Assembly: GCA_965219535.1 (NCBI GenBank)
Contig: CBDCNV010000002.1
Location: 60,001-92,000, forward strand
Direction: 5' to 3'
From: Opitutales bacterium
GTDB lineage: Bacteria; Verrucomicrobiota; Verrucomicrobiia; Opitutales; PNEW01
DNA: 32,000 nt
This document shows, one piece after another, positions 7,563 to 32,000 of this stretch. A model generated the notes under the pieces. It ran no database searches, had not been told where the DNA came from, and saw only the letters and a list, made by a program, of their open reading frames with translations. Position 1 is the stretch's first letter. Each line of letters starts with the position of its first letter. A program made the translations under genes and the position numbers.

Positions 7563-7575
7563 TATTTGTACCTGT

Positions 7576-12947: not shown

Positions 12948-12969
12948 AACTTCCCACACAGAGTTACCT

Positions 12970-14074: not shown

Positions 14075-14876
14075 ATTCCTGCAAACAGGGCTAATGAGAA
14101 GTAAGGCACCATGCACCCGGATTCACCCCACCATAACCCGTCCCTGCTCTGCTCTTGCCACGATAAAATTCCAGCCACTCCATCAGTTCGGTTGCTTCAT
14201 TAGCAGAGTGAATCTCCGCGCTACCCATGCGTTGTTTTATTTTATACTGGGGGACTTCCAGAATTGGGTTTTCTCCAACATATTTTTTCGACGCACAGTA
14301 TTTGAAGAAAGTGCTTAGGTAACTACGGCGGTTATTCCATGTTTTAAGAGAGAGCACTGCTTTTGAGCAATGGTGTCGTGTGTCGAGGTAAGTATTAATC
14401 TCAGCAGGTTGAATTTCATTCACGATTCGTTCCGCGAATATACCCTTTAATTTTTTCATCTCACGAATGATGCCCTGCTCCTGGCAAAATGAGATGATAC
14501 CAAGCTCCATTTCCATGGATTTATGATCGCAATACTCTCAGACCGCCTCTTCGACCGTCATGGTCTCGGCAGCTACTTTATAATGCGCTAAAAATAGTTA
14601 ACCGCGAAGGTGAGCGGTTTATTGGACTTGGCTTGGTTGAGAAGATTAATAGCTGCAGTGGCCTCTTTGTTCTGCCGGTGGGACAGGGTTGTCCAAACGG
14701 TCTTCCCTTCGGATTGTTCGTTTAAATACCGGATAGATAACTGTTGACGCTCTGCGATGGCATCGTTGTGGGACTTGAAATTCTTGCGTATTTGCTTGCC
14801 GTTTAGGGTGCCGGATAAACGCCATGCTTCTGACCTGCTGAAGATATATAAGATTTTTCCTCATATTCTCTATCAT
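13651..14876 (-). pseudogene. Tyrosine recombinase / phage-type integrase, disrupted by several frameshifts and an in-frame stop
   Basis: 13651..14178 carries the catalytic C-terminus (..LRHTYISMTVGSFRSVGDAALQVGNSESVIRKYY..). 14091..14516 carries the SAM-like N-domain. Hand translation near 14600-14830 gives the arm-binding-type N-terminus ..EAWRLSGTLNGKQIRKNFKSHNDAIAERQQL.. in a third frame. Confidence 0.8.
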
Positions 14877-15135
14877 CTCTCGCTAACAATATCGTGACTA
14901 CTTCCTCGTCTTGTAAAACGGAGTGTAAAAGTATATAGGTATGCAATGGGCGACCGTATTTGCATACCATATTGAATTCCTGACAATTACTGCCAAATTT
15001 GATGTGATTTCATTCCATTGGATGCCCATCCATTCCTTTTTAAGAATCAGATAATTCTATAGATAAAGCTTTGAATATAAGCTAAATGATTCATAAAGTT
15101 AACTTTAGTTAAAAATATAATATTTTAATAACAAG

Positions 15136-15163
15136 TCGAATTCAAGTCTCGTCTGTCCCGCCA
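15136..15163 (+). other. Possible decayed tRNA 3'-end fragment (att-site relic)
   Basis: tcgaaTTCAAGTctcgtctgtcccgCCA has a T-loop-like TTCAAGT, a 7-nt acceptor-like stretch and a terminal CCA. Only 3 of 5 T-stem pairs form, and there is no upstream tRNA body. Confidence 0.2.
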
Positions 15164-16720
15164 TTTATCAAGAGCTTACGAAATTATGAGCCCATGGCTT
15201 ATACTCATCTATCAGTCTTCGTTACATCTTATTACCTGCAAGTCACTTACCCTTTCGCACGACCTACCCATTTCTTTGTCGGTTGAACTGTATCCTATGT
15301 GGTCTTCAATCAGCAAAGTCAGGACCATAAGTGTCCCCCCTTTTCCGGTAATGTATCGTCTCGGGTATCCAGAAACTTATTCGTGCCTTGTGGGTTAGTT
15401 CCTTTACGGAGGAAAACCACCCTGTAGTTGTGTTGGAAAGCATCCACAAAGGCATAAAGAAAAGGCAGGACTTAAAACTGAAACTAATGGTAAGAATGGT
15501 AACGACGCCACAGTCCTTCAGGGACTTGACAAGGTCGGATCCAATGGAAGCGCTCTTCCCTCGTTTGCTGATGATAAGTTCGACAGGATGAGGTTTGATT
15601 CTTTTAGCCCAATTAGGAGACACAGGATCTGAAACGCTGGGTTTATTGGTTTGTCTCGTGGTGTGTGATGAGTTTCGTAGAAGCACGTCTTGAGCTCCGT
15701 TCGGCCAAGACGCGTTGTGCAAATAAATGGCTATTACCCCGATCGCACGGTGGCAGCTAATGTCAGTGCAATGTGTAATTCGACGCCAGAATTACGATGG
15801 AGGCCACAATCAATGAGCAAATTGCTGTCATCTGAAGATTCAGTGTCAGAGTTGTGTAGGTAAATTCTTGAGCTCAAGCATCCGTGAATCAAACTGGTAG
15901 TTACATCTTCATTATTTTCAGAGCTAACTTTCATACATAATCGATAGCTACATTTAAATAAATACGATGAAATGAAACGGCTTTCGCTATTTAACGCTAT
16001 ATGCTTTTATTTAGTTTCTCTGGACATAAGCGATAAGCTGATTCATAAGTGCTTATTAATTAACATAAAGAGTTGATTAATAAGGGGTGAGGGAAGGGAG
16101 AGTTTAACCCCTTGTAGAAGGCTTATTAACCCTCCTCTTTACCGGCTAAGGCTTGCCTGAAATTTCTACTTTTGTATATCCTGCAACTTCGTAACGGTAA
16201 CGTTATATTCGGCTAGTCGTTTCCTGTACGCCAGGGTAAGAAACAGGATCTCACTGTAAAAAGTAGCCCACTAAAAAAAAGAGGTCGGATCGACACGATC
16301 CTGTACTTATCTATCTACGAATCGATACTGAGAGGTTGTCCACTATTAAGGTTAAAGTGGTAACACTAAAAAGGTGACTATTCCTTCGAAGGTTGCTTAA
16401 ACAGGTCATTATCAGTACCAGTGAGCGCGGATAAAAAGAGAAAGTTCAAGGAAAAGTTAAATCCACTGTGATTATGTTACTTGAACCGGGTTACGGATTC
16501 ACTTGAGGTAGAAGGCCTTGGATGGTTACCCGCACAACGGTTATTATCTGTAATAGCAACGACTTGATCTTAGAGGTTACCCTATCGGGAAGTATTAAGT
16601 GTCAGCTTGCTATTGGTTGTTCATTCTCCTGGTTAAAGTCATCTACTTTTTGTCTCCAAAGCCCCTTGTCTTCAAGTGATAGGACCCCTTTTTAGTACAG
16701 TTTTACGGGGACACGTTAGA

Positions 16721-16821
16721 TGTTAATGGTTTTAGGATTGATGTATAGGAGAGATCTTGACGAAATAAGGGCGTGGCCCGAACGCGGTCAGGATCGCAAA
16801 GTAATCTGACAAACTCTAGTG
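16721..16821 (-). mobile_element. Solo 3' fragment of an IS3-family transposase gene (related to 7597-7697)
   Basis: tgttaatggttttaggattgatgtatagga...gggcgt.gcccgaacgcgg.caggatcg.aa.g.aatctgacaaactct.gtg is shared with 7597-7697, where it encodes the transposase C-terminus. Confidence 0.7.
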
Positions 16822-16873
16822 CACACATTCTTCATTCCTATTCCTGTGTGGTTTTATGAAAGTGTGAAGCATT

Positions 16874-17471
16874 ATGAAAACTGTTTCTGTCATCAGCCAG
16901 AAAGGAGGCTCAGGGAAACTACCCCTCGCCTTACACTTGGCTGTGGCTTCCATCTCTGAACAGCGCAATACGGCCGTGATTGATCTCGACCCACAAGCCT
17001 CGGCGACGAAATGGTCCGATCGTCACGATGCTGATTTGCCGGTTGTCTTTTCAGCGCATGCCAGTCGCTTGCACCACGAGATGCATCACGTTGACGAGAC
17101 TGGCGGCGAAATCCTATTTCTCGACACAGCACCGCATTTGGACAGCGCAGCATTGGAAGCCGCGAAGATTTCCGTTCTTATTCTGATCCCTTGCCGTCCT
17201 GCCATTCTCGATATGGAGGCCATATCGAACCACCCTTGATCTCGTGAAAACGATCGGCAAGCCGGTTTTCGTCGTGATGAATGCTGTTGCTGCGCAAAGG
17301 AAAGAGGCCGAGGAAGTGGTCTAGGCGAGCGTTGCGCTCGATATTCAGGTCTGCCCTGTACGGCTGGTTAGTCATGTGGCGTTTTCCCGATCGCTGATAA
17401 CTGGCCAGACTGCGCAAGAGTTTGAACCGGATGATAAAACCGCCCATGAAATTACGCAATTGCCAACATGA
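16874..17471 (+). pseudogene. parA: ParA-family partition ATPase, frameshifted and with an in-frame stop
   Basis: ISQKGGSGK (deviant Walker A), AVIDLDPQASATKW and FLDTAPHLDSAALEAAK are present. The frame changes near 17235 and continues LVKTIGKPVFVVMNAVAAQRKEAEEVV*..VCPVRLVSHVAFSRSLITGQTAQEFEPDDKTAHEI, with a TAG at 17322-17324. Confidence 0.8.
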
Positions 17472-20219: not shown

Positions 20220-21389
20220 TGCTCCCATTTACTAGACCAAGCTCAGTGTTAGGATTTGCTGGTTGGAGGGGGGCGGTTATCAGTTTGCATATGGCTTGCT
20301 GGGCGTATTCGGCCGGAGGCCGCCGGAGGCCGATAGCCCAGCGAACTGCGTAGTCTTTGAGTATTATAATCGAGGCGGTATGGTGTAAGCTTTTCCCGTG
20401 CCTCAGCCAGGGAAAAGAAGATCTCTGGGTTAAGGAGTTCGTCGCGTAGCTTGCCATTGAAGAACTCAATGTAAGCGTTCTCTGGTCGGTCTACCTGAGA
20501 ACTCGGGCCCGCTATCAACGGTGATGGCCTTGGGTAAACCACCGGTGTTTACCGATGCTCTCTCCAGCACCTCGATGACTTTGCCGGCGTCGATGGACTG
20601 ATCGGCGTAGAGCACCGGGCAGAGCGGTCATAGCGATCCACTACTGTAAGCACCCGGAAGCACCGCCCATCCGCCAACTTACCCTCCATGAAGTCCATGC
20701 TCCTGTGTTGGCGTGAGGCTCGGGCTTGAGCCAGCTGCACCCGTGGCAGGGAAGCCCACTTCTTACGCTTTTGGATGCGCACTTCCAGCCCCCTCGGCCT
20801 TGTAGGTGACGTAGACACGCTTGGTGGCCCACCGGCCAGCCTCTCGCTTTAGCAAACACTGTCGGACGCCGATAGCCGTAACGCATGCGCAATGCTGCCA
20901 GATCGCCGATACGCACGGTCAGCGCTCGATCGTCCGGTTTTGGCTTGGGCCAACACATAAAGCTTGACCCGTTAAGTTGCAGCAACCTGAACCCGCAACG
21001 GTAGCTGATCTCGAAGACCTCCGCGGCCTTACCCACCAGCTGCGCCTTGCGTACAGGCTTCAGAGCTATATTGAGACGATCTCCTGCAGGATATGTTTGT
21101 CCAGGCTCAGGTCGACCACCAGCTTACGTAAGCTGTTGTTCTCGTCTTCCGGCTTCTTCAACCGGGGTAGCTCGCTTACGCCTATGCCGCATACTGCTTC
21201 TTCCAGCGGTAGTAGGTCTGCTCCGAGACTCCTGGCTCGCGACACACATCGGCGATCCTGCGACCGCTGTCTGCTTGCCGCAAAGCGTAGATGATTTGTT
21301 CTTCTTTATAGTCTTTATAGCGTTTACCTTTGCTTTTCATAATGGACCGGGTTCCATTCTATGAACCCCGATCCAACCCAATGGGATCA
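20220..21389 (-). mobile_element. IS3-family (IS407-like) insertion sequence with a frameshifted transposase, inserted into an older IS remnant; left boundary approximate
   Basis: OrfA by hand translation from about 21352: MKSKGKRYKDYKEEQIIYALRQADSGRRIADVCREPGVSEQTYYRWKK..EDENNSLRKLVVDLSLDKHILQE. OrfB pieces: 20641..21036 (MRYGYRRP..), 20549..20818, and 20249..20542 (IEFFNGKLRDELLN..SSLGYRPPA). Termini: tgatcccattggg (minus strand at 21389) versus tgctcccattt (20220). Confidence 0.75.
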
Positions 21390-22150
21390 ACCTGCATACC
21401 CGGCGTTTGCTTACCTCATAAGCTTCCATTATCCACTTAGCTATCGACTTTTTGCGCAAAGGATTAATTTGCTGATTCCTAAACCTGTATATTTACACTT
21501 CCAACGGGGGTAAAGGCCTTGTTCGCACAACTCGGACCTTCGGTATCCCTTCGTCCGCCTTCTGCCTGCTTTATGAAATAGATCATTTGCTCTTTATGAT
21601 AACGCATGCCTTTTCTACTCATGGGTGGTTTTTATCCTGTCTTTTATCAGGTTTTCCACCCATGAAAGACTAAATCTTTGCTCGTCCAGTTAAATGGGAT
21701 CAGGTCACAGTCCCTCTATTTTATTAAGCTTACTTAACTGATTCATCCCGAGGGACTATCCACCAGAAACGATCTGCTTTTTCAGTAGTTACCAGGTCGA
21801 GATAGTAATTACGGATCACGGATTCAGAGTTGCTTGCCTGAGGTGCAGCGTCTCCTACCGAGCGGAAGGACCCCACCGTCATCGAAATATAGGTATGCCG
21901 TAGGACATTAGGTAGAGTTTGCGCTATTTACGGACATTAGCCCACATGTCGCGGAATCCCCTTGTTGGTATGGTGAGGTAGCTGCCAGGAGGATACTTCT
22001 CCAACCAGAGGCTACGGGTTGGGCTGGATTTTAACGGATCGCTTATCCTTTACTTTGGAGACATCCGGTTCGATAAGGATAACCCCGGTATCCCTATGGA
22101 TGTGTTTAGGTTTGAGTTTGCTCATTTTACCGTGTTTCCAGTCAAGTCTG
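21389..22150. repeat. Copy 2 of the diverged direct repeat: IS3 OrfA remnant + IS end + truncated integrase 3' fragment (about the last 135 codons, minus strand)
   Basis: See copy 1 (13299-14074). No ORF of 60 aa or more survives here. Similarity to the integrase stops abruptly at 22150. Confidence 0.75.
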
Positions 22151-22484
22151 TAAACAAAGTTTCTCTTAATCTACTTCATAGGGAAATCTGGAGGTGCCAA
22201 TACAGGTACCGTTTCGATTAAACTTGTCTCCACCGGGCGCATAAATTTATTGTTTTGCATCACAAGGGTCTGTTAATCGAGATTATTAAATTCACTCAAA
22301 AATTATTGACCGATTCCTGGCTGAACCTTACCAAAAAAGTATGATTCCTGCCCATTCCTGCCAAACATTTTGAGGCAAGGTCAGGAAATTAGAGGAAAAT
22401 ATAAATTATTATTGTGCCGTTATTTAAGTATAACTAATTGTTAATAAGCAATTTATAAGGCATTATTGAGTCCCGTTCATAGTC

Positions 22485-22793
22485 GGTTACATCGAATCGT
22501 TCCATGCACGTTTTCGCGAGGAGTGTCTAAATCGTGAACAGCTGTGGACTTTGACCGAAGCCCGCGTGGTGATCGAAGATTGGCGCTGGCTTTACAATCA
22601 TGTTCGACCCCACCGCAGCCTCGGCAATATTACTCCACAACGTTTCGCTCAAAACCTCAATACCGAAGGCTCGGGCTCCATTCGGGCTACGCCCTCATTG
22701 CGCCCAAGCCTTGACTTCCTCTACCAACTTAACTTCAACATTAACTTCTCCAGACTAACTCTCTCAGTGGACCAGTTTGTGTAACCCGACCAG
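22485..22793 (+). mobile_element. 3' fragment of an IS3-family element (same lineage as 5040-6360)
   Basis: 22551..22784 reads MTEARVVIEDWRWLYNHVRPHRSLGNITPQRFA...LYQLNFNINFSRLTLSVDQFV, nearly identical to the C-terminus of ORF 5018..5488. Upstream hand translation gives GYIESFHARFREECLNREQLW. Confidence 0.8.
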
Positions 22794-23072
22794 TAGCAAT
22801 ATGTTAGCAATATCAATTTTACTTACCGAGTGGATAAGGAAAGGATCTGGATAAATTGCGGATAAAGATAGGTTGAATCAATATCTACAAATAAACAGTC
22901 GATATTTATATATGGGCAGAATGAATTTTTATGTAACCGTCGCACAGCCGAGAAAAAGGCTGGTGAGTGTGATTAGAACAGAAATTTCACAAGCGGCCTG
23001 ACGCCCGATGCGAATCCAACCTTATCCCAACTCCAACCCCTTATCCGACACCCAGAACAATCGGCTCCACCC

Positions 23073-24134
23073 CTAAAAGAGCAACTCCCGACAATCCCAG
23101 TCGAGAAACTGCCCCATTCTAGCTTCAAATGTCGAAAATCTTTTCCAAACTAAGGCAGGGAAAAGATTGGCAATAACCGAAAGTCTATAGTCATACAAAC
23201 AGTCATTCCAATCGTAACCCGATACGCCGCCCTCCAGAAGTCCGTTATAATAATACCGCAACAACCCTTCCTCCAGAGATCGACGTCGATCAGGTTCCTC
23301 ATCCGAAACAAGGTAACACAAATCATAAGTCCCAAGACCTCGCTTGTATGTCTCCCAATCAGAAAAATACAAAGCATTTCTCGACGAGTCCTTAGGGTAA
23401 AAGATATTATACTTATGCAAATCCCCATGCAAGAGCGTCAACCCACTCCCCCTTCCAATTCGCTCTAGATACAACCTTTCCCATTCTTCGACAGATTTAA
23501 GAACAAGCCCATGCATTTCTTGAGACAATTCATCCGAGAACTTTGATGCGAATCGAAGAAACTCTTCCTCTCTCCACAATCGGCAATGATCCTTCACGAC
23601 ATCCGCAGTCGATGCTTGTATCATCCGCAAAGGCCCCCCTGAAGCTCGCATAAAGTCTTCTCCCAGCAACTCCGGAGCATCCCACCATCCGGCATGAAAC
23701 TTCAATACCTCATCAATAATCTGTTTATACAGATCGATCGTAAAAGCCTCCCCCTTAGGGGGCTCAATATCATGCGTGTCAGATGCATCCTCGAAAAGGA
23801 AATAGCATTGCCGCGAAGATCTATCAAAATCAAAATCATAACGCCTCACCGTTGGAGGACTCGAAATCCGTGCTGCAATGTCATTATAGAAAATCGATTC
23901 ATCCAAACCGCCTCCGAACCAATCCTCCCGATATCGCTTCAAAATTATATTGCAATGCAGACCAACTTCAACATCACCAGAATAAGTAATTTTTAAAGGC
24001 GTTAAAAAGGCCGCCGTTGATTCAAACTCCTCGCCAATCTGCACATCCTCCACGAAACCGTCCGAAAGATATCCATTCTTTCTAAAACGTTCAGTCAACC
24101 AACTTGGGGTAATTTGCTCCGCACGAATCATCAA
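23073..24134 (-). CDS. Phosphotransferase, APH / choline-kinase-like protein kinase fold, 353 aa
   Basis: Brenner-type catalytic motif LLHGDLHKYNIF (HxDxxxxN) followed by YFSDWETY (D-W-E metal-binding region), at the spacing usual for aminoglycoside/ecdysteroid-kinase-like enzymes. Confidence 0.7.
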   Translation of the reverse strand: MMIRAEQITPSWLTERFRKNGYLSDGFVEDVQIGEEFESTAAFLTPLKITYSGDVEVGLHCNIILKRYREDWFGGGLDESIFYNDIAARISSPPTVRRYDFDFDRSSRQCYFLFEDASDTHDIEPPKGEAFTIDLYKQIIDEVLKFHAGWWDAPELLGEDFMRASGGPLRMIQASTADVVKDHCRLWREEEFLRFASKFSDELSQEMHGLVLKSVEEWERLYLERIGRGSGLTLLHGDLHKYNIFYPKDSSRNALYFSDWETYKRGLGTYDLCYLVSDEEPDRRRSLEEGLLRYYYNGLLEGGVSGYDWNDCLYDYRLSVIANLFPALVWKRFSTFEARMGQFLDWDCRELLF

Positions 24135-24393
24135 TCGACTCTCTTTGTTAATTAGCTCTCGCCTTACGGCACTCTGTTATTATCTTCAGTTAGGAAAGAG
24201 CATCAAAATGCCCAAGTCGAGAACAGATATCCAAATAATACCATTTATCAATAAGACTTGCATCAGTCAACTAGAGCTGAAGCACGGGACTACCTTTTAC
24301 CGAACAAAGAGACAAACCTTCTTGAGGCGATCGATTGATGCACCCTGGAAAAAGTGGACACGGAATTCTCTCTTAGAGAGGATCCCTACTTTG

Positions 24394-24765
24394 TCAAAGA
24401 AGAGACGTTTCAGCGTCGAGTTCAAGAAGGAAGCAGTGCGACTAATGCTGCTGGAAGGGCGTTCCGTCTCGTCCTCAACGCTTCGCTCCGGAGGCGTTTC
24501 TGTCTTGGGCGAGTGATATTCTGTCCCGATGCGGCAGCATCCACAGCTGCTACGAAGCTGGCCCCCTGGGGCTACTCCTGCACCGCAGGCTGGTCGAGCT
24601 TGGGATATCCAATCATGGACATGAATATGCCTCGAAAAGTTGGATAACAGTGCGGCTCTTGATATTGATAAATCAAGTAAACAAATAAGAACGTATACAT
24701 CAGAATTTAAGCAGGACGCAGTGAATATGATGCTTTCTAGCAAGGGCTCAATCGCCCGGAAATAG
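24394..24765 (+). pseudogene. Two short IS3-family OrfA (HTH) fragments
   Basis: ..SKKRRFSVEFKKEAVRLMLLEGRSV.. (end of ORF 24145..24516), and by hand translation ..KQIRTYTSEFKQDAVNMMLSSKGSIARK* (about 24670-24765). Confidence 0.5.
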
Positions 24766-25071
24766 CCTCGCTTGCCGGACTCGCTCCAATCACCCTCCAG
24801 TCCGGGCAATGGAAAGGGCGATACTTTTCTCGACAGCGGCCGATCCAGGGTCCACAGAGCTCTCTATCTCGCCGCCCTCAGCGCGTCTCGATACAACGAG
24901 ACTCTCAAAATGTCTTCTACAAATGCTAGAAAGCCCGCCAAGCTGGCACTATGTGCCGTGGCAAGAAAGCTGCTCACCGCACTTGGTCGTGACCACGACC
25001 AGGAGGGCTTGTACTTATCTCAGCCTCAGTGGGTCAACGTACAGCTACCGGCCCAAACAGGCCAGTAATAA
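24766..25071 (+). pseudogene. IS110-family transposase 3' fragment (frameshifted)
   Basis: Hand translation gives ASLAGLAPITLQSGQWKGR. In ORF 24772..25068, ..GRSRVHRALYLAALSASRYNETLK...KPAKLALCAVARKLLTAL matches the conserved C-terminal region of IS110/IS1111-type transposases. Confidence 0.65.
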
Positions 25072-25077
25072 AGCTCA

Positions 25078-26770
25078 GCGGTTGGTTCCGGCGCATTCCC
25101 GATGGGTATTCTGCAAACCCTCACCCTGGTACTGCGCCGTCTTGACCCCGACAACGCGCTTTGGGAGCAAATTCAGAAGAAGCGGGCCAAGGCCCGAGCC
25201 GGTGCGACGTTCGACACTCATGATCAAGCGGCTCGAAGCGAGGCTCTCCGCGAGATCAGCGACACTTTCGAAAAGTACCGACAGTCGGACTTCGGCCGAA
25301 AGCTCTACCTCATACAGAATGCCATCTACGGCGTGGATATCCAACCCATCGCCTGCCAAATTGCCAAGTTGCGCTTTTTCATCTCACTCGTCATTGAGCA
25401 GGACCCTGACCTCGGCGCGCCCAATCTTGGCATCAAACCGTTACCCAATCTGGAGACACGGCTCGTCGCCGCCGACAGCTTGCTCAGCTTCAAGGCCGAA
25501 ACCGGCGACTTACTTCACCATAATGCCGTGGCGTCGAAGCAACGGGAGGTCGCGGCGGTACGTGATCGCTACTTCCTGGCGGACAGCCGGCCGAAGAAGC
25601 TTGAATGTATGCAGGCGGAGAAACGTCTGCGCGACGAGTTGCAGGACATATTGGAGACCGAGCGCCGAATCTGGGTTACAGTCCAGGATCGGGACATAGA
25701 AAGCATGGCGGCGAGATTTCCCAACGCGGATACCCGTGAGACCTTTCGAGCGAAGGAGCTTGGCAAGCTCGCTCTACGACAACGCGAGTACGATGAGACT
25801 TTGGCCGCGGCCCGTTTGATTGCCGAATGGGATCCCTACGACCAGAACGCTCACGCCGGCTGGTTCGACCCCGAATACATGTTCGACGTTTCGGCTGGTT
25901 TCGATGTCGTGATCGGCAACCCGCCTTATATCCAGTTGCAGAAGGACGGAGGTCGCGCGAGAAAGAAATACCAAAACGCCGGCTACGAGACGTTCGCAAG
26001 TACTGGGGACATCTACCAACTCTTCTACGAACGAGGCTGCGGGCTGCTCAAACCACGCGCTGGCGTATTGGCCTACATCACTTCTAACAGTTGGCTGAAG
26101 GCAGAATACGGCAAACCCCTTCGCCAGTGGTTCGCCGAACGGCACATGCCGCTGCAACTGATCGAAATGGGCAAGAACGTCTTCGAGAACGCAATAGTGG
26201 ATACAGCGGTGCTGATTGTCAGAAACGGCACGGGCCACCCTGTGACGTGCCCGGCGGTGGACGTCGATCAGGCATCGGAAAACCGATTCCCGCCGCCCAA
26301 AGGAGACTGGGGGACGCTACAACCGGAGGGTGATCGACCATGGATGGCGCTTTCGTCGGTCGAGCGCTCTGTAATGGAGAAGATGGAAACCGTCGGCACA
26401 CCTCTAAGGGAGTGGGATATTTCCATTTACCGTGGAATTCTCACCGGCTACAACGACGCTTTCATCATCGACACCGCAGTAAGAGACCGCCTTATCGCAG
26501 AGGATCCATCGTCAGAAGAAATACTCAAGCCGATTCTCAGGGGTCGTGATATAGCGCGTTACCGTGCAAACTGGGCTGACCTTTGGCTGATATCAACGTT
26601 TCCCTCGCTCGGTCTAGACATTGACGCTTATCCGGCGATCAAGCGACATCTCTTGTCTTTTGGGAAAGGACGTCTGTCTCAGGAAGGACGTCAATTGCCA
26701 GGAGGAGGTCGATCAAGGAAGAAGACATCCAATGCATGGTACGAACTTCAGGATACTTGCTCTTACCATG
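25078..26770. repeat. Left arm of the perfect 1693-bp inverted repeat
   Basis: It is the reverse complement of 27607-29299 (paired coordinates sum to 54377). I checked the nucleotides at both ends. Mirrored ORFs in several frames have identical translations in the supplied track. Confidence 0.95.
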
Positions 26771-27210
26771 AGGAATTTGGAAAAGCGAAGCTGTTTTGGA
26801 TGCACATGACACCGTATGGGAGGTTCGTATTGGCCGAGCCAAATGTCGTATGCAACCAGAAATGCTTCATGGTAACGGGAATGAACCTCGAATACCTTTG
26901 TGCCGTCCTTAACAGTAAGCTGGTGACTTGGCTTGTGAGACGCACTGCTGTAACGACAGGAATGGGGCTTCCTCAGTGGGACAAGTTCACCGTTGAACGC
27001 GTCCCGGTTGTGCAACCGGACCACCTTGTCATGGACGAGATCGGGGACATCGTGGAGTCTATTCTTGCCGCCCTAGAGCGCGGCGACGTCCAAGAGGTGG
27101 CCAGACTCCAGCGGATGATCGACAGCCACGTTTTTGGGCTTTACGAGCTGACGGAAGTCGAACGAGAGGCGGTTTCAAGAGCTATCAGTGATTCGTTGCC
27201 AATTCAATGA
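25078..27210 (+). pseudogene. 5'-truncated second copy of the DNA methyltransferase gene carrying an alternative C-terminal module (silent cassette candidate)
   Basis: Starts inside SAM-binding motif I (..AVGSGAFPMGIL..). ORF 25102..27210 is identical to residues 539-1094 of the 1234-aa protein, then diverges for its last 146 aa. There is no N-terminal region, and an IS110 remnant abuts its 5' edge. Confidence 0.8.
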
Positions 27211-30200
27211 CTTCCACCTCCTCTGCGGAGATCCCGTAGGTCTCGTAGATTACCTCATTGATCCGCTTCTCGATCTGCGCAAGTTGCTTCTCGTCGGACG
27301 ACGTAACTGATCGAGCCTCGTCGACTAGCCTACACAGTGTATCGGCGGCAGACGGACGTAGTATAGCCACGGGTATCGACTCGACGTACACCTTCTTCCA
27401 CCGAGGCACGCCCATACCTGAGGTAGGCGCTGTTTTCAGAATGTACCAGTGTGCGAGTCGCGAATTGAGGAACGCACAGAGGTAGTTCATTCGCTCGCCA
27501 GTGATCATGAACGTTGTTGCCTCGATGAACATTCCGCTTTCGTCGTACGCAAATCTGCCCCGGTCGACCAGTTCTATCCAGATCACCTTCTCCGACGCAA
27601 ATGTGCCATGGTAAGAGCAAGTATCCTGAAGTTCGTACCATGCATTGGATGTCTTCTTCCTTGATCGACCTCCTCCTGGCAATTGACGTCCTTCCTGAGA
27701 CAGACGTCCTTTCCCAAAAGACAAGAGATGTCGCTTGATCGCCGGATAAGCGTCAATGTCTAGACCGAGCGAGGGAAACGTTGATATCAGCCAAAGGTCA
27801 GCCCAGTTTGCACGGTAACGCGCTATATCACGACCCCTGAGAATCGGCTTGAGTATTTCTTCTGACGATGGATCCTCTGCGATAAGGCGGTCTCTTACTG
27901 CGGTGTCGATGATGAAAGCGTCGTTGTAGCCGGTGAGAATTCCACGGTAAATGGAAATATCCCACTCCCTTAGAGGTGTGCCGACGGTTTCCATCTTCTC
28001 CATTACAGAGCGCTCGACCGACGAAAGCGCCATCCATGGTCGATCACCCTCCGGTTGTAGCGTCCCCCAGTCTCCTTTGGGCGGCGGGAATCGGTTTTCC
28101 GATGCCTGATCGACGTCCACCGCCGGGCACGTCACAGGGTGGCCCGTGCCGTTTCTGACAATCAGCACCGCTGTATCCACTATTGCGTTCTCGAAGACGT
28201 TCTTGCCCATTTCGATCAGTTGCAGCGGCATGTGCCGTTCGGCGAACCACTGGCGAAGGGGTTTGCCGTATTCTGCCTTCAGCCAACTGTTAGAAGTGAT
28301 GTAGGCCAATACGCCAGCGCGTGGTTTGAGCAGCCCGCAGCCTCGTTCGTAGAAGAGTTGGTAGATGTCCCCAGTACTTGCGAACGTCTCGTAGCCGGCG
28401 TTTTGGTATTTCTTTCTCGCGCGACCTCCGTCCTTCTGCAACTGGATATAAGGCGGGTTGCCGATCACGACATCGAAACCAGCCGAAACGTCGAACATGT
28501 ATTCGGGGTCGAACCAGCCGGCGTGAGCGTTCTGGTCGTAGGGATCCCATTCGGCAATCAAACGGGCCGCGGCCAAAGTCTCATCGTACTCGCGTTGTCG
28601 TAGAGCGAGCTTGCCAAGCTCCTTCGCTCGAAAGGTCTCACGGGTATCCGCGTTGGGAAATCTCGCCGCCATGCTTTCTATGTCCCGATCCTGGACTGTA
28701 ACCCAGATTCGGCGCTCGGTCTCCAATATGTCCTGCAACTCGTCGCGCAGACGTTTCTCCGCCTGCATACATTCAAGCTTCTTCGGCCGGCTGTCCGCCA
28801 GGAAGTAGCGATCACGTACCGCCGCGACCTCCCGTTGCTTCGACGCCACGGCATTATGGTGAAGTAAGTCGCCGGTTTCGGCCTTGAAGCTGAGCAAGCT
28901 GTCGGCGGCGACGAGCCGTGTCTCCAGATTGGGTAACGGTTTGATGCCAAGATTGGGCGCGCCGAGGTCAGGGTCCTGCTCAATGACGAGTGAGATGAAA
29001 AAGCGCAACTTGGCAATTTGGCAGGCGATGGGTTGGATATCCACGCCGTAGATGGCATTCTGTATGAGGTAGAGCTTTCGGCCGAAGTCCGACTGTCGGT
29101 ACTTTTCGAAAGTGTCGCTGATCTCGCGGAGAGCCTCGCTTCGAGCCGCTTGATCATGAGTGTCGAACGTCGCACCGGCTCGGGCCTTGGCCCGCTTCTT
29201 CTGAATTTGCTCCCAAAGCGCGTTGTCGGGGTCAAGACGGCGCAGTACCAGGGTGAGGGTTTGCAGAATACCCATCGGGAATGCGCCGGAACCAACCGCC
29301 GGATCAAGCACTCTTAGGCCAGCGATGGCACCTACCAGTGATTCTTTTTCTTCCGGTTCGAAGAAGTCGCCGGCATCGGCCTTCGCGTCTTCCCAGTTGA
29401 GCAGGTAACGCAGCCGTTCCCGCCAGAATTCATCGCCGCGGATGGTGGGTTGGGCATTCCCGGCCAAAGCGTCAACCAAGGCTTCGCCGACCATATAGTC
29501 CACCACCGGCCGCGGCGTGTAATAGGAGCCGGTAGCATTGCGGGCGGTTGCGCGTGTCTCTGGATTGTAGGCAGCGAGTAGGTTCTCGAAGACACGGCCT
29601 AGAAGCTCGGGGTCAAGCGCAACCTCGCGGTCGAGGGGCGTGCTCTCCTCGACAGTGAACTTGAAATGGCGAAAGAGGGTAAACAGTCCCTCCTGATCGA
29701 GAAGCAGACGCGCAGGCACGCACAACTCCTCGTCCTTGATCAGATCCTCAGTGAAGGCGTCAACCAGCCCGCCGTCCGCTACGGTGAAATCGTCCAGGCA
29801 GTCGAACAGTCCGCCATTGACGAACGGAACCTTCTCCAGGTTTCTGGCGAAAGCGTCCGGGTCGGTGAGCAAGTCGTGGTATCGGTACTTGGTGAAGTCC
29901 CGGTGGGAACTGGACGTTTGATTGCTGAAGCCACGCTTGTCGATTTCCGTGTTCAGGGTGGCGAAGAACAGGTTTTGCAGCACTGCGCGGTAATAGTCTG
30001 TCCGGTTAGACGTGTGGCGCTTGAGCGTAGCGCGCGAGAATTCTTCATCGAACAAGGTATCGGGGACCAACCCCTTTTCCTTCATGAACCAGATGAAGAG
30101 CAGCCTTGTGATGAGCCGGATGACGTGGCGTTCGGTACCTTCTTCGCCTGCGCCGTCGTCCGGGAAGCGGCACTCGGCGACAGCCCGCTCAAACCAAGCG

Positions 30201-30889
30201 AACAGTTTGCGGTAGAAACGCTTGTTCAGTGTTTCGATATCGAGCACCCGCTCCCACTCCTCGTGCAGCTCATCGAAACTACGGACCCCCGACTCGCGCA
30301 TGCGGGAGAACGCGAGGTCGGAAAGAATCTCGATATGCGCCCGATGCGGCTCGGCCAAGCGGATATCCTTCACCAAAGTCACCCTGTCCAACACGTCACG
30401 GCTATCGTCGCGTGTGTGCACGCGCCGGTGTGTGGTGGCCAGTGTCAACGTCGAACCGTGACGGAACAGGAGAATAACCGGCATCGCGAAGAGGCGGTTC
30501 ACGGCACGAGTCGTCTCCGCCAAGTGCGTGCGCGAATAGGCATCCCGCGCCATGTCCACCGCAAGGAAGAGGAAGGACTCTATCCGGCCCTGGTCGAACC
30601 CATGAGTCTCGAACAGGTCGGACTGCCGGACGATCTCTCCGGCTGTGAACTGGAATACGATTTCGACGGCGGTCCATGATTCGAATAGCTTGCGCTGCTT
30701 TTTGGTCAGCTTGTTGCTGTGCGCGAAGCGCTCGAGGAATTCCTGGACGCTGCCGACCTCTGCAGTCCGCTGGCTGCTGTAACCGAGCTCGTCGAGCAAC
30801 GCCGTAGCCCCCACCCTCAATGGCGCATCGTCGGCGAGATTGCCCAGTGCTTCGAGTGTTCCACAGGCTACGACTAAGCCGTTAGTCAT
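27185..30889 (-). CDS. Large gamma-class N6-adenine DNA methyltransferase, Eco57I/PglX-like with a TaqI_C-like C-terminal specificity region, 1234 aa
   Basis: Motif X GSYYTPRPVVDYMV, motif I VLDPAVGSGAFPMGIL, motif IV DVVIGNPPYIQLQ. Downstream come ITSNSWLKAEYGKPLRQWF, GILTGYNDAFII and AWYELQD, as in PglX / type IIG / type IIL enzymes. I recognised no PD-(D/E)xK or HNH nuclease motif in the N-terminal 500 aa. Confidence 0.85.
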   Translation of the reverse strand: MTNGLVVACGTLEALGNLADDAPLRVGATALLDELGYSSQRTAEVGSVQEFLERFAHSNKLTKKQRKLFESWTAVEIVFQFTAGEIVRQSDLFETHGFDQGRIESFLFLAVDMARDAYSRTHLAETTRAVNRLFAMPVILLFRHGSTLTLATTHRRVHTRDDSRDVLDRVTLVKDIRLAEPHRAHIEILSDLAFSRMRESGVRSFDELHEEWERVLDIETLNKRFYRKLFAWFERAVAECRFPDDGAGEEGTERHVIRLITRLLFIWFMKEKGLVPDTLFDEEFSRATLKRHTSNRTDYYRAVLQNLFFATLNTEIDKRGFSNQTSSSHRDFTKYRYHDLLTDPDAFARNLEKVPFVNGGLFDCLDDFTVADGGLVDAFTEDLIKDEELCVPARLLLDQEGLFTLFRHFKFTVEESTPLDREVALDPELLGRVFENLLAAYNPETRATARNATGSYYTPRPVVDYMVGEALVDALAGNAQPTIRGDEFWRERLRYLLNWEDAKADAGDFFEPEEKESLVGAIAGLRVLDPAVGSGAFPMGILQTLTLVLRRLDPDNALWEQIQKKRAKARAGATFDTHDQAARSEALREISDTFEKYRQSDFGRKLYLIQNAIYGVDIQPIACQIAKLRFFISLVIEQDPDLGAPNLGIKPLPNLETRLVAADSLLSFKAETGDLLHHNAVASKQREVAAVRDRYFLADSRPKKLECMQAEKRLRDELQDILETERRIWVTVQDRDIESMAARFPNADTRETFRAKELGKLALRQREYDETLAAARLIAEWDPYDQNAHAGWFDPEYMFDVSAGFDVVIGNPPYIQLQKDGGRARKKYQNAGYETFASTGDIYQLFYERGCGLLKPRAGVLAYITSNSWLKAEYGKPLRQWFAERHMPLQLIEMGKNVFENAIVDTAVLIVRNGTGHPVTCPAVDVDQASENRFPPPKGDWGTLQPEGDRPWMALSSVERSVMEKMETVGTPLREWDISIYRGILTGYNDAFIIDTAVRDRLIAEDPSSEEILKPILRGRDIARYRANWADLWLISTFPSLGLDIDAYPAIKRHLLSFGKGRLSQEGRQLPGGGRSRKKTSNAWYELQDTCSYHGTFASEKVIWIELVDRGRFAYDESGMFIEATTFMITGERMNYLCAFLNSRLAHWYILKTAPTSGMGVPRWKKVYVESIPVAILRPSAADTLCRLVDEARSVTSSDEKQLAQIEKRINEVIYETYGISAEEVEVIELATNH
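27607..29299. repeat. Right arm of the perfect 1693-bp inverted repeat (inside the intact methyltransferase gene)
   Basis: As for the left arm. It corresponds to codons 531-1094 of CDS 27185..30889. Confidence 0.95.
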
Positions 30890-32000
30890 TGCGTTTGCGT
30901 TCCAGGTTCCTCGTGATGACTAGCCATGTAATAAGGTCGAATTTGCCGAGCGGTTCTGGTTCCGGTAATTTCTCTGTGATTACGGCGCCGCGGTTGCGAC
31001 TGAGCCCGGTCAACTCCGCATCCCGGAAAGAACGGGCGATGCTGCGCAGTGCCGCAGCGAGCATGGCATCATGCTTCTCCATGCGTTGGCCCTGTTCGGT
31101 TTCCCGGTCGAAGGCGTCCTCCAGCGCGGTAATCGCTTCGGGACGGCCCGCCGCAAGCGCCCGGAACAGGGCAAGGCATTGTCGGGATTGCCGGAAGGTG
31201 TAGCGCACGGTGCCATCCTCGCGTACATAGACTAGGAAGTATGGCCAGAGGCGGTTCGGGGTGCGTGCGGCGGGGTCGCCGAAGCGTCTCAGGCAGAAAA
31301 TCGCACCGGGCCGCACCAGATCGGTCGCGCTGCCCTTGGTCTCCGGTTGGCCCTCATCCACAACGGCATGGATGCCCAACGGCGCAGTTTCCAGAGCTTC
31401 TCGATTCTGCTGGATATAGTGAAGCAGGTCGGCGACGAAATCATCGAGCGTAAGATCGTTTAAGCCAACGCCGTCATCGGTTTCCTCAATATCGAGAATC
31501 TCGTCGCGCATACGCGTCAACTGCCGGTCGCGGAAGGTAAGTTCCAACTGGACTGCCTCGGTGTGTTCGTCCTTGGTGCGGTCGTCGCGGTTGAGCGGGT
31601 CGTCGAGGCCGGTGGCAGCTGCATCGGCAAGCGCCATCCGCGCTTCGACGCGATTCTTCAGATCCAGATAGCAGTCGAGGTTCTCAGTCGGCCAGAAATT
31701 GGTCATGGCGACCTGTCGATTGCGGCTGCCAAGTCGGTCGATCCGGCCGAAACGTTGCATAAGCCGAACCGGATTCCAATGGATGTCATAGTTCACGACG
31801 AGGTCGCAGTCCTGAAGGTTCTGTCCCTCTGACAGGCAGTCGGTCGCGATCACGATGTCGATTTCACAGTCTTGACTGCCGGCCTGTTGCGCCCTAGGGG
31901 CAAACCGCTCCAGAATGTCGATAAACCGGGATGTTCCCGTGGTGCTCCGGTTGCCGTCCCCGCCGGTCACCAGCGCAATGTGAACGCCGAGCTCGTTGCG
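30882..32000 (-). CDS. SNF2/SF2-type helicase, C-terminal part only (5' end outside the window)
   Basis: Helicase motifs V-VI: ATDCLSEGQNLQDCDLVVNYDIHWNPVRLMQRFGRIDRLGS. The frame stays open to position 32000 (..RNELGVHIALVTGGDG..). The stop TAA at 30884..30882 overlaps the methyltransferase ATG (ATGACTAA, an 8-nt overlap). Confidence 0.8.
   Translation of the reverse strand, partial: RNELGVHIALVTGGDGNRSTTGTSRFIDILERFAPRAQQAGSQDCEIDIVIATDCLSEGQNLQDCDLVVNYDIHWNPVRLMQRFGRIDRLGSRNRQVAMTNFWPTENLDCYLDLKNRVEARMALADAAATGLDDPLNRDDRTKDEHTEAVQLELTFRDRQLTRMRDEILDIEETDDGVGLNDLTLDDFVADLLHYIQQNREALETAPLGIHAVVDEGQPETKGSATDLVRPGAIFCLRRFGDPAARTPNRLWPYFLVYVREDGTVRYTFRQSRQCLALFRALAAGRPEAITALEDAFDRETEQGQRMEKHDAMLAAALRSIARSFRDAELTGLSRNRGAVITEKLPEPEPLGKFDLITWLVITRNLERKRND

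What the first reader, a model, noticed from the sequence alone, without database searches (positions are those of the whole stretch)
25078..29299. Perfect 1693-bp inverted repeat within a defence-type DNA methyltransferase gene: candidate inversion switch
Positions 25078-26770 are the exact reverse complement of 27607-29299. I compared the outer ~140 nt and inner ~45 nt directly. Across the arms, the ORF track shows identical translations for mirrored ORFs in several frames: 26340..26549(+) = 27828..28037(-), 25774..26238(-) = 28139..28603(+), and 25676..25999(-) = 28378..28701(+). The right arm is codons 531-1094 of the intact 1234-aa methyltransferase, running from motif I through NPPY into the specificity region. 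The left arm belongs to a 5'-truncated copy with no N-terminal region. Recombination between the arms would invert the 836-bp centre and join the other C-terminal module to the full-length gene. This follows the logic of hsdS shufflons and of the duplicated or truncated pglX cassettes reported in some BREX loci. Three things differ here. The arms are unusually long and perfectly identical. No recombinase gene lies between or next to the cassettes; the nearest is a decayed integrase about 10 kb away. The partner gene is an SNF2 helicase rather than a BREX gene set.
Basis: partly seen in the sequence, partly recalled or inferred. Interest (0 to 1): 0.9.

Follow-up and report, generated by a model that had tools for sequence, protein, structure and literature searches.

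The report
Invertible methyltransferase specificity switch, recombinase lost
A real, perfect 1.7-kb inverted repeat lets a defence DNA methyltransferase swap its last 140 amino acids (part of its DNA-reading domain) by flipping an 836-bp segment. This kind of switch is already known, but this copy is unusual because its dedicated recombinase gene is missing and its repeat arms are very long.

Summary
In detail: 25078-26770 is the exact reverse complement of 27607-29299 (1693 bp, 0 mismatches). The right arm is codons 531-1094 of an intact 1234-aa Eco57I/TaqI_C-type N6-adenine methyltransferase. The left arm is a 5'-truncated silent copy. The 836-bp centre holds two convergent, in-frame C-terminal modules that are 30% identical.

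Comparative evidence supports an inversion switch. About 17 of 88 related loci carry a tail-to-tail silent cassette, almost always next to a conserved tyrosine recombinase (Fisher p = 7e-14). Two ~96%-identical Chloroflexota strains differ by exactly this inversion, with the crossover in a 14-15-bp core (TGCGCTTACCATGA). The window's arms end at that core. A Paracoccaceae relative carries the same module pair in the opposite state.

The window differs in two ways. No such recombinase is found in the 32 kb. The silent copy also extends ~1.3 kb further than usual, ending at a 7-bp microhomology junction with IS debris. Present-day flipping is therefore inferred to depend on homologous recombination, or on a recombinase encoded elsewhere. 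Flipping in this genome is not shown.

The kind is already published: Milman et al. 2023 describe programmed inversions in Eco57I-type enzymes partnered with PLD-SNF2 helicases. I rate this a new variant of a known kind, of moderate interest.

The parts
27185..30889 (-). Full-length methyltransferase gene, 1234 aa. It contains an N-terminal region of unknown fold, an Eco57I-type gamma-class N6-adenine MTase core with NPPY, and a TaqI_C-type C-terminal target-recognition domain.
   Evidence: Pfam Eco57I 1.9e-34 and TaqI_C 4.3e-14. PADLOC REase_MTase_IIG 3e-145.
27607..29299 (-). Right arm of the inverted repeat, codons 531-1094 of the expressed gene.
25078..26770 (+). Left arm of the inverted repeat. 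It is a silent 5'-truncated copy of codons 531-1094. It lacks the N-terminal 530 residues, including motif X (GSYYTP) and the first two residues (D-P) of motif I.
27185..27606 (-). Module V2a: the currently expressed C-terminal 140 aa plus stop.
   Evidence: It is 71% identical to the silent module of L016.
26771..27210 (+). Module V2b: the silent alternative C-terminal 146 aa plus stop, in frame with the left arm. It is 30% identical to V2a but keeps all 11 nearly invariant family residues of this region.
   Evidence: It is 68% identical to the expressed module of L016.
27607..27619 (-). Right copy of the family recombination core. It reads TGCTCTTACCATG (codons C-S-Y-H) and forms the exact inner edge of the right arm.
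26758..26770 (+). Left copy of the family recombination core (TGCTCTTACCATG), forming the exact inner edge of the left arm. The spacing of the pair (851 bp) matches relatives (847-861 bp in the closest).
30882..32000 (-). 3' part of the partner gene, a PLD(HKD)-SNF2 helicase-nuclease. It covers residues ~752-1122 of ~1123 and is open to the window end. Its stop overlaps the MTase start by 8 bp.
   Evidence: Pfam Helicase_C. PADLOC 'HKD+Snf2' 1.6e-35. It is 73-77% identical to the L084/L083 helicases. The PLDc_2 domain is seen in the L084 orthologue.
25001..25087 (+). Fragment of an IS3-family orfB (RRACTYLSLSGSTYSYRPK..AQRLV) joined to MTase codon 531. CGGTTGG (25079-25085) is shared by both partners, which marks an illegitimate microhomology junction and not an IS end.
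   Evidence: A second IS3 copy at 8392-8475 continues differently after CGGTTGG.
24400..24993 (+). IS debris occupying the position where relatives carry the recombinase gene. It comprises IS3 orfA fragments (24400-24471 and 24700-24756) and a frameshifted IS110-family transposase C-terminus (24759-24993).
   Evidence: (PF02371 1.2e-09; PF01527 3.5e-04).

Best explanation
The locus is a specificity-module inversion switch of a two-gene restriction-like defence system: a PLD-SNF2 helicase-nuclease plus an Eco57I/TaqI_C-type N6-adenine methyltransferase. One full-length methyltransferase gene faces a promoterless, 5'-truncated silent copy, tail to tail. Exchange between the two arms inverts the 836-bp centre. 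The full-length gene then ends in either module V2a or module V2b. By homology with CamA, these modules carry DNA-contacting loops of the recognition domain, so the methylated motif, and presumably the restricted motif, would change. In relatives a dedicated tyrosine recombinase next to the cassette performs the flip at a 14-15-bp core inside codons C-A-Y-H. In this genome that recombinase gene is absent. An inverted duplication extended the silent copy by ~1.3 kb, out to codon 531, and ended in a 7-bp microhomology junction with IS debris. I therefore infer that flipping now depends on general (RecA-type) homologous recombination across the 1693-bp identical arms, and that gene conversion also keeps the arms identical.

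Shown: the repeat; the in-frame alternative modules; the family architecture; a natural inversion in relatives; the core at the arm edge; the absence of the recombinase from the window; the junction structure.

Inferred: that this copy still flips; the RecA route; the change of specificity; the origin by templated inverted duplication.
For: The repeat is perfect and both junctions are in frame. V2b keeps 11 of 11 nearly invariant family residues despite 30% identity to V2a, which suggests it is a maintained functional module.

A tail-to-tail cassette is present in 17 of 88 informative related loci from many phyla. Fifteen of those have a conserved ~320-aa tyrosine recombinase within 6 kb, against 1 of 71 loci without a cassette (Fisher p = 6.7e-14). 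The closest canonical relatives, L084 and L085, read helicase-MTase-cassette-recombinase.

L081 versus L082/L086 (~96% identical) differ by inversion of exactly the two-module segment (877 bp). The crossover lies inside TGCGCTTACCATGA. The same core occurs once per copy in most cassette loci. In the window it sits at the exact inner ends of the arms with matching spacing.

L016 has the window's two module types in the opposite expression state, at 71% and 68% identity. Within 90%-identity clusters, proteins that are at least 95% identical over their first ~1050 aa can be only 32-65% identical in the last 130 aa.

CamA alignment combined with the CamA-DNA contacts (PMC8187626) gives this mapping. 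Q438/W439/R441 fall in the WYELQ loop just before the switch point. Y455/K456 and S472/A473 map to V2 positions that differ between V2a and V2b (E1106/L1107 vs H/M; E1123/A1124 vs N/Q).

No family recombinase is found in the window. The junction has microhomology.

Precedent exists. In S. pneumoniae only the 15-bp repeat needs the tyrosine recombinase PsrA, while the other inversions at that locus proceed without it (PMC4948785). Invertible regions without a nearby recombinase are known (PMC9881135).
Against: There is no read-level or population evidence for either orientation of this particular locus. The protein is not in the large collections, and the nearest metagenome hit is 71% identical. 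Perfect arm identity is equally expected from a very recent duplication with no ongoing exchange. The surrounding region is decaying: IS fragments and pseudogenes are present, so the system may be on its way out. In the pneumococcal precedent, deleting recA had no detectable effect, so a RecA route is not guaranteed. The core differs from the family consensus at one base (TGCTCT vs TGCGCT). The specificity change rests on a ~20%-identity alignment to CamA.
Confidence: 0.5

Rival explanations
1. Frozen relic. The locus descends from a recombinase-driven switch, but the rearrangement that deleted the recombinase and extended the silent copy is recent. The switch no longer flips at any biologically meaningful rate. 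The arms are identical only because they are young, and the region is in decay.
For: The recombinase is absent. The left flank is IS debris with a microhomology junction. Recombinase decay is also seen in relatives: L081 has an in-frame deletion of the catalytic region, L012 is frameshifted, and L083 is replaced by IS elements. Zero mismatches in 1693 bp fit a recent event.
Against: Identical inverted repeats of 1.7 kb are good substrates for homologous recombination in recombination-proficient bacteria (established knowledge). Both the silent module and the expressed gene are intact, and the partner helicase is open as far as it is visible.
Confidence: 0.25
2. Still site-specific. A cognate tyrosine recombinase encoded outside the window acts in trans on the two intact core sites. 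It could lie upstream of the helicase, as in L012, or belong to a second system copy. The long arms would then be incidental.
For: Both cores are intact and correctly spaced at the arm edges. L012 shows that the recombinase can lie upstream of the helicase. The window stops ~2.3 kb short of the helicase start. Sponge-symbiont-type genomes often carry several copies of this family; for example, the record OY764061.1 gave two loci, L027 and L076.
Against: In 15 of 17 cassette loci the recombinase lies directly downstream of the cassette, exactly where the window has the extended arm and IS debris. The core has one substitution relative to the consensus.
Confidence: 0.15
3. Assembly or amplification artefact. 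The centre and a short cassette are real, but the outer ~1.3 kb of the left arm is a fold-back chimera, for example from strand-displacement amplification or a misjoined read.
For: Perfect identity, an inverted orientation and a short microhomology at the outer junction are also hallmarks of inverted chimeras made by strand-displacement amplification (established knowledge). No other family member examined has arms longer than 453 bp.
Against: The structure is not a simple fold-back. It has an asymmetric 836-bp centre with two different intact modules at the family-typical spacing. An artefact would need a second chimeric junction at 25078 into unrelated sequence, and 7 bp is too short for an assembler overlap. 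The expected recombinase gene is missing altogether and not merely displaced.
Confidence: 0.06

Closest known systems
Gene-altering programmed inversions in Eco57I-type ('Cj0031-homologue') Type II RM-like enzymes with an adjacent phospholipase-D + SNF2 helicase gene (Milman, Yelin and Kishony, NAR 2023, PMC9881135; e.g. Bacteroides ovatus CP083813.1, confirmed by long reads)
   Same: Same gene pair: a PLD-SNF2 helicase immediately upstream of an Eco57I-domain methyltransferase. The inverted repeats overlap the methyltransferase coding sequence, and a truncated copy lies tail to tail. The inversion changes the protein's C-terminal part. The window meets that paper's sequence attributes: repeat of at least 44 bp, short CDS distance, tail-to-tail orientation and asymmetry.
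   Different: No recombinase lies in or next to the invertible region in the window. The arms are 1693 bp and perfect, against 36-453 bp and 79-100% in the relatives examined here. The silent copy reaches back to motif I. I could not fetch the B. ovatus record, so direct orthology to that locus is untested.
Type I hsdS shufflons (e.g. S. pneumoniae SpnD39III/Spn556II with PsrA/CreX; PMC4948785, PMC6620402)
   Same: One expressed specificity gene plus silent partial copies in inverted orientation. The repeats lie in conserved coding segments, and half-domains are swapped by inversion. A tyrosine recombinase is needed for the 15-bp repeat, while longer repeats invert without it.
   Different: The protein is different. 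Here the recognition domain is the C-terminus of the methyltransferase itself, with no separate HsdS. Only two alleles are possible in the window.
BREX type 1 pglX inversion cassettes (L. rhamnosus and B. casei in PMC9881135)
   Same: A large gamma-class N6-adenine methyltransferase of a defence system whose recognition region is varied by inversions against truncated copies.
   Different: The window's enzyme is not PglX: NCBIfam BREX models score 24-64 bits against cut-offs of 400-900. No brxA/B/C, pglZ or brxL is present in the window or in orthologous loci. In L. rhamnosus a middle segment is swapped by nested inversions; here the C-terminal end is swapped.
CamA (C. difficile orphan adenine methyltransferase, PDB 7LNI) as structural reference for the recognition domain
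   Same: It is the closest solved relative by sequence (E = 6e-12, query residues 805-1156). It shares the WYELQ loop, whose Q/W/R residues read bases in CamA.
   Different: CamA is an orphan 577-aa enzyme with no N-terminal extension, no helicase partner and no cassette. Identity is only about 20%.

Membership tests
Gene-altering programmed-inversion locus, Eco57I-type enzyme + PLD-SNF2 helicase class (PMC9881135) | Inverted repeats (at least 44 bp) overlapping the target coding sequence | tested here: met
   1693 bp with 0 mismatches, covering codons 531-1094.
Gene-altering programmed-inversion locus, Eco57I-type enzyme + PLD-SNF2 helicase class (PMC9881135) | A full-length gene and a truncated paralogous copy, tail to tail and a short distance apart (orientation matching, asymmetry), with alternative in-frame ends | tested here: met
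   ORFs 27185..30889(-) and 25102..27210(+) overlap by 26 bp. The C-terminal modules are 30% identical and both are in frame.
Gene-altering programmed-inversion locus, Eco57I-type enzyme + PLD-SNF2 helicase class (PMC9881135) | Immediately adjacent gene encoding phospholipase-D nuclease + SNF2 helicase | tested here: inconclusive
   The helicase C-terminal third is present and overlaps the MTase start. The PLD-bearing N-terminus lies beyond the window end and is seen only in orthologues L082-L085.
Gene-altering programmed-inversion locus, Eco57I-type enzyme + PLD-SNF2 helicase class (PMC9881135) | Site-specific recombinase gene in or next to the invertible region | tested here: not met
   tblastn with seven family recombinases found nothing credible in 32 kb (best E = 0.08, 30 aa). 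Relatives have the gene in 15 of 17 cassette loci. Sequence upstream of the helicase is not visible.
Gene-altering programmed-inversion locus, Eco57I-type enzyme + PLD-SNF2 helicase class (PMC9881135) | Both orientations coexist in one population (long reads) | not testable with these tools
   No reads are available. There is no identical protein on record and no near-identical contig.
Gene-altering programmed-inversion locus, Eco57I-type enzyme + PLD-SNF2 helicase class (PMC9881135) | Orientation polymorphism between related genomes | tested here: met
   Shown in homologous loci, not in the window's own species. The L081 versus L082/L086 segment is inverted. L016 has the window's module pair in the opposite state.
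Type I R-M hsdS shufflon | Separate HsdS specificity subunit with HsdM and HsdR | tested here: not met
   Pfam and PADLOC show a single Eco57I + TaqI_C polypeptide and an SNF2 helicase, with no HsdS/HsdM/HsdR.
BREX (PglX) | The MTase reaches the PglX family model cut-off, and brxA/B/C, pglZ and brxL are neighbours | tested here: not met
   NCBIfam BREX_1/2/5/6 MTaseX models score 24-64 bits against cut-offs of 400-900. No BREX genes are present in the window or in L081-L085.
DISARM class 1 (DrmMI + DrmD + DrmA/B/C) | DrmD-type helicase and DrmMI at family score, with DUF1998/DrmA, DrmB and DrmC present | tested here: not met
   DrmD models score 66 bits (window fragment) and 147 bits (L084 full length) against a cut-off of 610. 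No DrmA/B/C is present in orthologous loci.
Type-2 BREX-related (BR) system (PMC12839542) | DUF499 AAA+ ATPase and DUF3780 genes alongside the HKD-Snf2 helicase and an N6-MTase with a nested TRD | tested here: not met
   Orthologous loci contain only helicase + MTase (+ cassette + recombinase), with no DUF499 or DUF3780. The TRD is C-terminal (TaqI_C, residues 1014-1174). System definition taken.
Single-chain Type IIG/IIL enzyme (MmeI-like) | N-terminal nuclease domain fused to the MTase-TRD | tested here: inconclusive
   PADLOC REase_MTase_IIG gives 3e-145. However, the MmeI Pfam domains score below cut-off. The AlphaFold model of residues 1-430 (pLDDT 73) has no PDB fold match at E < 0.1. 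The nuclease is more plausibly the PLD domain of the partner helicase.

The most novel reading that the evidence does not exclude
A site-specific, recombinase-driven specificity shufflon has been converted into a recombinase-independent switch. A microhomology-mediated inverted duplication deleted its own recombinase gene while stretching the repeat arms from a few hundred bp to 1.7 kb. Flipping and arm homogenisation would then be taken over by general homologous recombination. This would be a natural snapshot of how programmed inversion systems shift between dedicated and housekeeping recombination. At the family level there are two further points. A ~14-bp recombination core is embedded in the C-A-Y-H codons and conserved across at least eight phylum-level lineages of mostly sponge-associated MAGs. 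A two-tier repeat layout (outer repeat at residues ~977-1035, inner core at ~1091-1094) would allow independent exchange of two sub-modules of the recognition domain.
Probability: 0.35. Interest if true: 0.55.

Novelty: new variant of a known kind. Interest (0 to 1): 0.42.

Why it matters
If this copy still flips, a 1.7-kb perfect repeat would be enough to keep an epigenetic and restriction-specificity switch running after loss of its dedicated recombinase. That bears on how phase-variable defence systems persist in IS-ridden, decaying symbiont genomes. More broadly, the family survey gives a testable system: a helicase-nuclease plus methyltransferase pair whose DNA specificity is set by a swappable ~140-aa module, with a defined 14-15-bp crossover site and a cognate recombinase. 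This is useful for mapping specificity determinants in TaqI_C-type recognition domains and for engineering them. It also matters practically. Such loci can be mis-assembled or collapsed in metagenome bins, and methylation-motif binning would see two motifs from one strain.

Tried and rejected
- Exact look-up of the 1234-aa protein found nothing on record.
- The genome-contig scan and the metagenome-contig scan found no sequence from the same species. The best matches were 65% and 71% identity, the latter partial. The flipped state of this exact locus could therefore not be sought.
- BREX membership, DISARM membership and Type-2 BREX-related membership were each tested and rejected (and neighbourhoods).
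- I first read the left flank as the end of an IS110 element that had inserted into a longer silent copy. Comparison with the second repeat copy at 8392-8475 showed that the last 84 bp are an IS3 orfB fragment cut mid-gene. The junction is therefore illegitimate and not an IS terminus.
- The decayed integrase at 13651-14516 is unrelated to the family recombinase.
- The promoter/terminator scan was uninformative: 1 promoter-like site against 3.6 expected.
- I tried to test whether the core's synonymous positions are more conserved in cassette-bearing genes than in cassette-less genes. The motif regex found too few cassette-less genes.
- The plasmid collection holds only distant homologues, at most 40% identical, and H5, the only hit inspected, had no cassette.
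- No further cassettes exist elsewhere in the window.

Full report
**Observation**

Window 25078-26770 is the exact reverse complement of 27607-29299: 1693 bp with no mismatch. It is the only inverted repeat of at least 30 nt in 23-32 kb. The outer edge is sharp. The inner edge ends after ...TGCTCTTACCATG. The '1724 nt, 99%' reported is a gapless run-on into conserved codons. The right arm is codons 531-1094 of ORF 27185..30889(-), 1234 aa. The left arm lies in ORF 25102..27210(+), 702 aa, which continues in frame into a different C-terminus.

**What the genes are**

The 1234-aa protein carries an Eco57I-type gamma-class N6-adenine methyltransferase core (PF07669, 1.9e-34; NPPY at 811-814). 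It also carries a TaqI_C recognition domain (PF12950, residues 1014-1174). PADLOC files it under 'Type IIG restriction enzyme-methyltransferase' at 3e-145.

The gene immediately upstream on the same strand overlaps the methyltransferase start by 8 bp. It is the 3' third of a helicase whose best PADLOC match is 'HKD+Snf2'. It is 73-77% identical to residues 752-1122 of the ~1123-aa helicases of the closest relatives and is open to the window's end. Those full-length orthologues have an N-terminal PLD (HKD) nuclease domain followed by an SNF2/ResIII helicase.

The system is therefore a two-gene helicase-nuclease plus methyltransferase unit.
- It is not BREX. PglX models score 24-64 bits against cut-offs of 400-900, and there are no BREX neighbours.
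- It is not DISARM. DrmD scores 66-147 bits against 610, and there is no DrmA/B/C.
- It is not the DUF499/DUF3780 'Type-2 BREX-related' system (neighbourhoods).

The first 430 residues gave a moderately confident AlphaFold model (pLDDT 73) with no PDB fold match. Whether the methyltransferase has a nuclease domain of its own remains open.

**The centre**

The 836 bp between the arms hold the two convergent gene ends, which overlap by 26 bp. V2a is the expressed module (140 aa) and V2b is the silent one (146 aa). They align end to end at only 30% identity. V2b nevertheless keeps all eleven positions that are nearly invariant in this region across 28 family members: F1097, K1101, W1104, F1113, L1137, L1141, N1142, G1158, G1160, W1164 and P1173 (read). 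This is what a maintained, usable alternative module looks like, and not a decaying pseudogene end.

The silent copy lacks the N-terminal 530 residues, including the GSYYTP motif and the first two residues (D-P) of motif I. It cannot be an enzyme on its own (inference from the sequence).

**Comparative evidence that this architecture is a switch**

The family is large; closest proteins are 65-74% identical. Of the loci fetched from species-representative genomes, most come from MAGs of sponge-associated-type lineages: Poribacteria, Caldilineaceae, Latescibacterota, Binatia, Arenicellales and others.

tblastn shows a tail-to-tail, minus-strand partial cassette covering query residues ~977-1229 directly downstream of the methyltransferase in many loci. 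Among 88 loci with a complete gene and at least 2.5 kb downstream:
- 17 have the cassette.
- 15 of those 17 have a conserved ~320-aa tyrosine recombinase within 6 kb downstream (usually 0.8-0.9 kb from the methyltransferase stop), 46-72% identical to one another.
- Only 1 of the 71 loci without a cassette has that recombinase (Fisher p = 6.7e-14).

The two exceptions are L012 and L045. In L012 the recombinase lies upstream of the helicase and is frameshifted. L045 has only a 39-aa fragment of a cassette. The closest canonical relatives, L084 and L085, read helicase - methyltransferase - inverted cassette - recombinase. In L083 the same layout is broken by IS elements.

**Direct natural inversion**

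Inside 90%-identity protein clusters, members that are 95-97% identical over their first ~1050 residues can be only 32-65% identical in the last 130. I fetched the contigs for one such pair from different samples, L081 and L082. They are collinear at ~96% identity, except that L081 8556-9432 aligns in reverse to L082 9993-9117 (877 bp, 95.4%). L086 has the L082 state.

The inverted piece is exactly the two-module centre. The collinear and inverted alignments overlap by only 15-18 bp. The two copies in each strain share just TGCGCTTACCATGA at that point, with unrelated sequence on either side. A 14-15-bp exchange site next to a tyrosine recombinase gene points to site-specific recombination.

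The same core, which encodes C-A-Y-H after the conserved WYELQDT motif, occurs exactly once in each copy in most cassette loci. In the window it occurs as TGCTCTTACCATG at 26758-26770 and 27607-27619. These are the precise inner ends of the perfect arms, 851 bp apart, against 847-861 bp in the nearest relatives.

L016 (a Paracoccaceae MAG, 59% identical overall) carries the window's two module types in the opposite state. Its silent module is 71% identical to the window's expressed V2a, and its expressed module is 68% identical to the window's silent V2b.

**What the swap would change**

The closest solved relative by sequence is CamA (7LNI; E = 6e-12; query residues 805-1156). In the CamA-DNA structure, Gln438, Trp439 and Arg441 read bases. 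These are the Q of WYELQ and the residues just after it. Further contacts come from Tyr455/Lys456, Ser472/Ala473 and Ser514/Ile517/Tyr521 (PMC8187626).

In the alignment, Tyr455/Lys456 and Ser472/Ala473 fall on query 1106/1107 and 1123/1124, inside V2. There V2a has E-L and E-A, and V2b has H-M and N-Q. The switch point thus sits right after one DNA-reading loop, and V2 carries at least two more. A change in part of the recognition sequence is therefore plausible. This is an inference from a ~20%-identity alignment.

Many relatives also have a second, outer repeat at residues ~977-1035 in addition to the inner core. This suggests two exchangeable sub-modules. In the window the region between the two repeats is identical in both copies, so only two alleles are possible.

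**How the window differs**

(i) No homologue of the family recombinase exists anywhere in the 32 kb (tblastn with seven queries; best E = 0.08 over 30 aa). A decayed integrase at 13651-14516 is unrelated.

(ii) The arms are 1693 bp and perfect. In relatives the repeats are 36-453 bp and 79-100% identical.

(iii) The silent copy starts at codon 531 and not at ~977. The extra ~1.3 kb occupies the place where relatives have the recombinase gene.

(iv) The outer junction is illegitimate. Left of 25078 lies a fragment of an IS3-family orfB (RRACTYLSLSGSTYSYRPK...AQRLV). A second, 82%-identical copy at 8392-8475 continues differently after the sequence CGGTTGG, and CGGTTGG is also the methyltransferase sequence at codons 531-533. 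Further left lie IS3 orfA pieces and a frameshifted IS110-family transposase end.

The simplest history is inferred as follows. A break near the short cassette repeat invaded the inverted repeat in the expressed gene. It copied ~1.3 kb of that gene in inverted orientation and rejoined by 7-bp microhomology, deleting the recombinase gene. An alternative is a larger inverted duplication that was later trimmed.

**Mechanism proposed and its rivals**

Best reading (0.5): a derived, recombinase-less version of the family switch that now flips by general homologous recombination over the long identical arms, with gene conversion keeping them identical. There is precedent. In S. pneumoniae the tyrosine recombinase PsrA is needed only for the 15-bp repeat, while the other inversions at that locus proceed without it, although recA deletion had no detectable effect there (PMC4948785). 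Invertible regions without a nearby recombinase are also on record (PMC9881135).

Rivals:
- A frozen relic whose arms are identical only because the rearrangement is recent (0.25).
- A cognate recombinase outside the window acting on the intact cores (0.15). The window ends ~2.3 kb short of the helicase start, and L012 shows that an upstream position is possible.
- An assembly or amplification fold-back for the outer part of the left arm (0.06). This is disfavoured by the asymmetric family-typical centre, the need for a second chimeric junction, and the complete absence of the expected recombinase gene.

None of these can be settled without reads or the rest of the genome.

**Comparison with what is known**

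[quoted passage not shown] The kind is therefore published.

The following appear to be additions, but they are incremental:
- the recombinase-less, long-arm form in the window;
- the 14-15-bp core inside the C-A-Y-H codons;
- the tight cassette-recombinase linkage;
- the natural inversion between strains;
- the spread of this family in sponge-symbiont-type MAGs.

I could not retrieve the B. ovatus record to test orthology directly.

**Verdict**

The repeat is real and is part of a specificity-module inversion switch by descent (about 0.9). Whether it still switches here is open (about 0.5-0.65 across the two active-switch readings). Novelty: a new variant of a known kind. Interest: 0.42.

Noticed in passing
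window 24400-25087: The stretch between a kinase-like gene (23073-24134) and the left arm is a junkyard of transposase fragments. It holds two IS3 orfA pieces, a frameshifted IS110-family transposase C-terminus and an IS3 orfB N-terminal piece.
   Followed up: yes
window 2867-3352, 5018-5488, 7736-8800: Several more broken IS3/rve integrase-core ORFs are present, plus an IS3 orfA-orfB remnant on the minus strand. Long intact ORFs are rare outside 17.5-20.1 kb and 25-32 kb, which suggests a heavily pseudogenised region.
   Followed up: partly
It is unrelated to the shufflon recombinase family.
   Followed up: partly
window 25000-32000 vs 1-17000 and 21000-25000: G+C is 0.53-0.61 over the methyltransferase-helicase unit, against 0.39-0.49 in most of the flanking sequence. 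The TonB-receptor gene at 17.5-20.1 kb is also 0.55-0.56. The defence unit looks horizontally acquired.
   Followed up: no
L081 9817-10557 vs L082 10383-11345: In L081 the shufflon recombinase has an in-frame internal deletion (246 vs 320 aa) that removes the segment containing the HSLRAG...Y catalytic region. That strain is probably locked in its current orientation.
   Followed up: partly
L012 5512-6452: Here the family recombinase lies upstream of the helicase instead of downstream of the cassette, and it is split over two frames.
   Followed up: partly
L009, L012, L048, L049, L057 (TRD regions): These loci have two tiers of inverted repeats. An outer one lies at residues ~977-1035 (spacer ~1170-1420 bp). 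An inner one lies at the C-A-Y-H core (spacer ~730-910 bp, but only 196 bp in L057). This implies two separately exchangeable sub-modules of the recognition domain. The outer repeat does not contain the inner core sequence.
   Followed up: partly
L024 14677-16238; L071 16377-17925; L035 10001-13573 and 18713-22270: L024 gave an additional tblastn hit with the alternative C-terminal module on the same strand, but it lies within the C-terminal end of the L024 MTase gene itself (11713-15405). In L071 the MTase gene is interrupted (query residues 27-996 at 10001-12820) and its C-terminal module lies ~3.5 kb downstream at 16377-17072, facing an inverted cassette. L035 carries two full-length paralogous methyltransferase genes in direct orientation.
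   Followed up: no
L018, L019, L022, L026, L051, L053, L061, L068, L072, L078 (about 0.5-7 kb downstream of the MTase); L009 15.5-23.5 kb: Many Poribacteria and Caldilineaceae loci have long arrays of diverged repeats with a ~102-bp period (34-aa repeat proteins) just downstream of the methyltransferase. L009 has an 8-kb array with a ~61-bp step.
   Followed up: no
window 29600-30889 (-), residues 1-430 of the MTase: The N-terminal region is highly conserved in the family, with many invariant residues. It gives only a weak DUF4391 hit and a weak MmeI helical-spacer hit. The AlphaFold model shows an alpha/beta domain at ~70-180 followed by helices, with no PDB fold match.
   Followed up: partly
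L166 (Parabacteroides distasonis plasmid NZ_OY725763.1, 21864-28527): A distant version of the SNF2-related protein + N-6 DNA methylase pair lies on a Bacteroidales plasmid without a cassette. It is followed by a TIR-domain gene and an AAA-domain gene.
   Followed up: no
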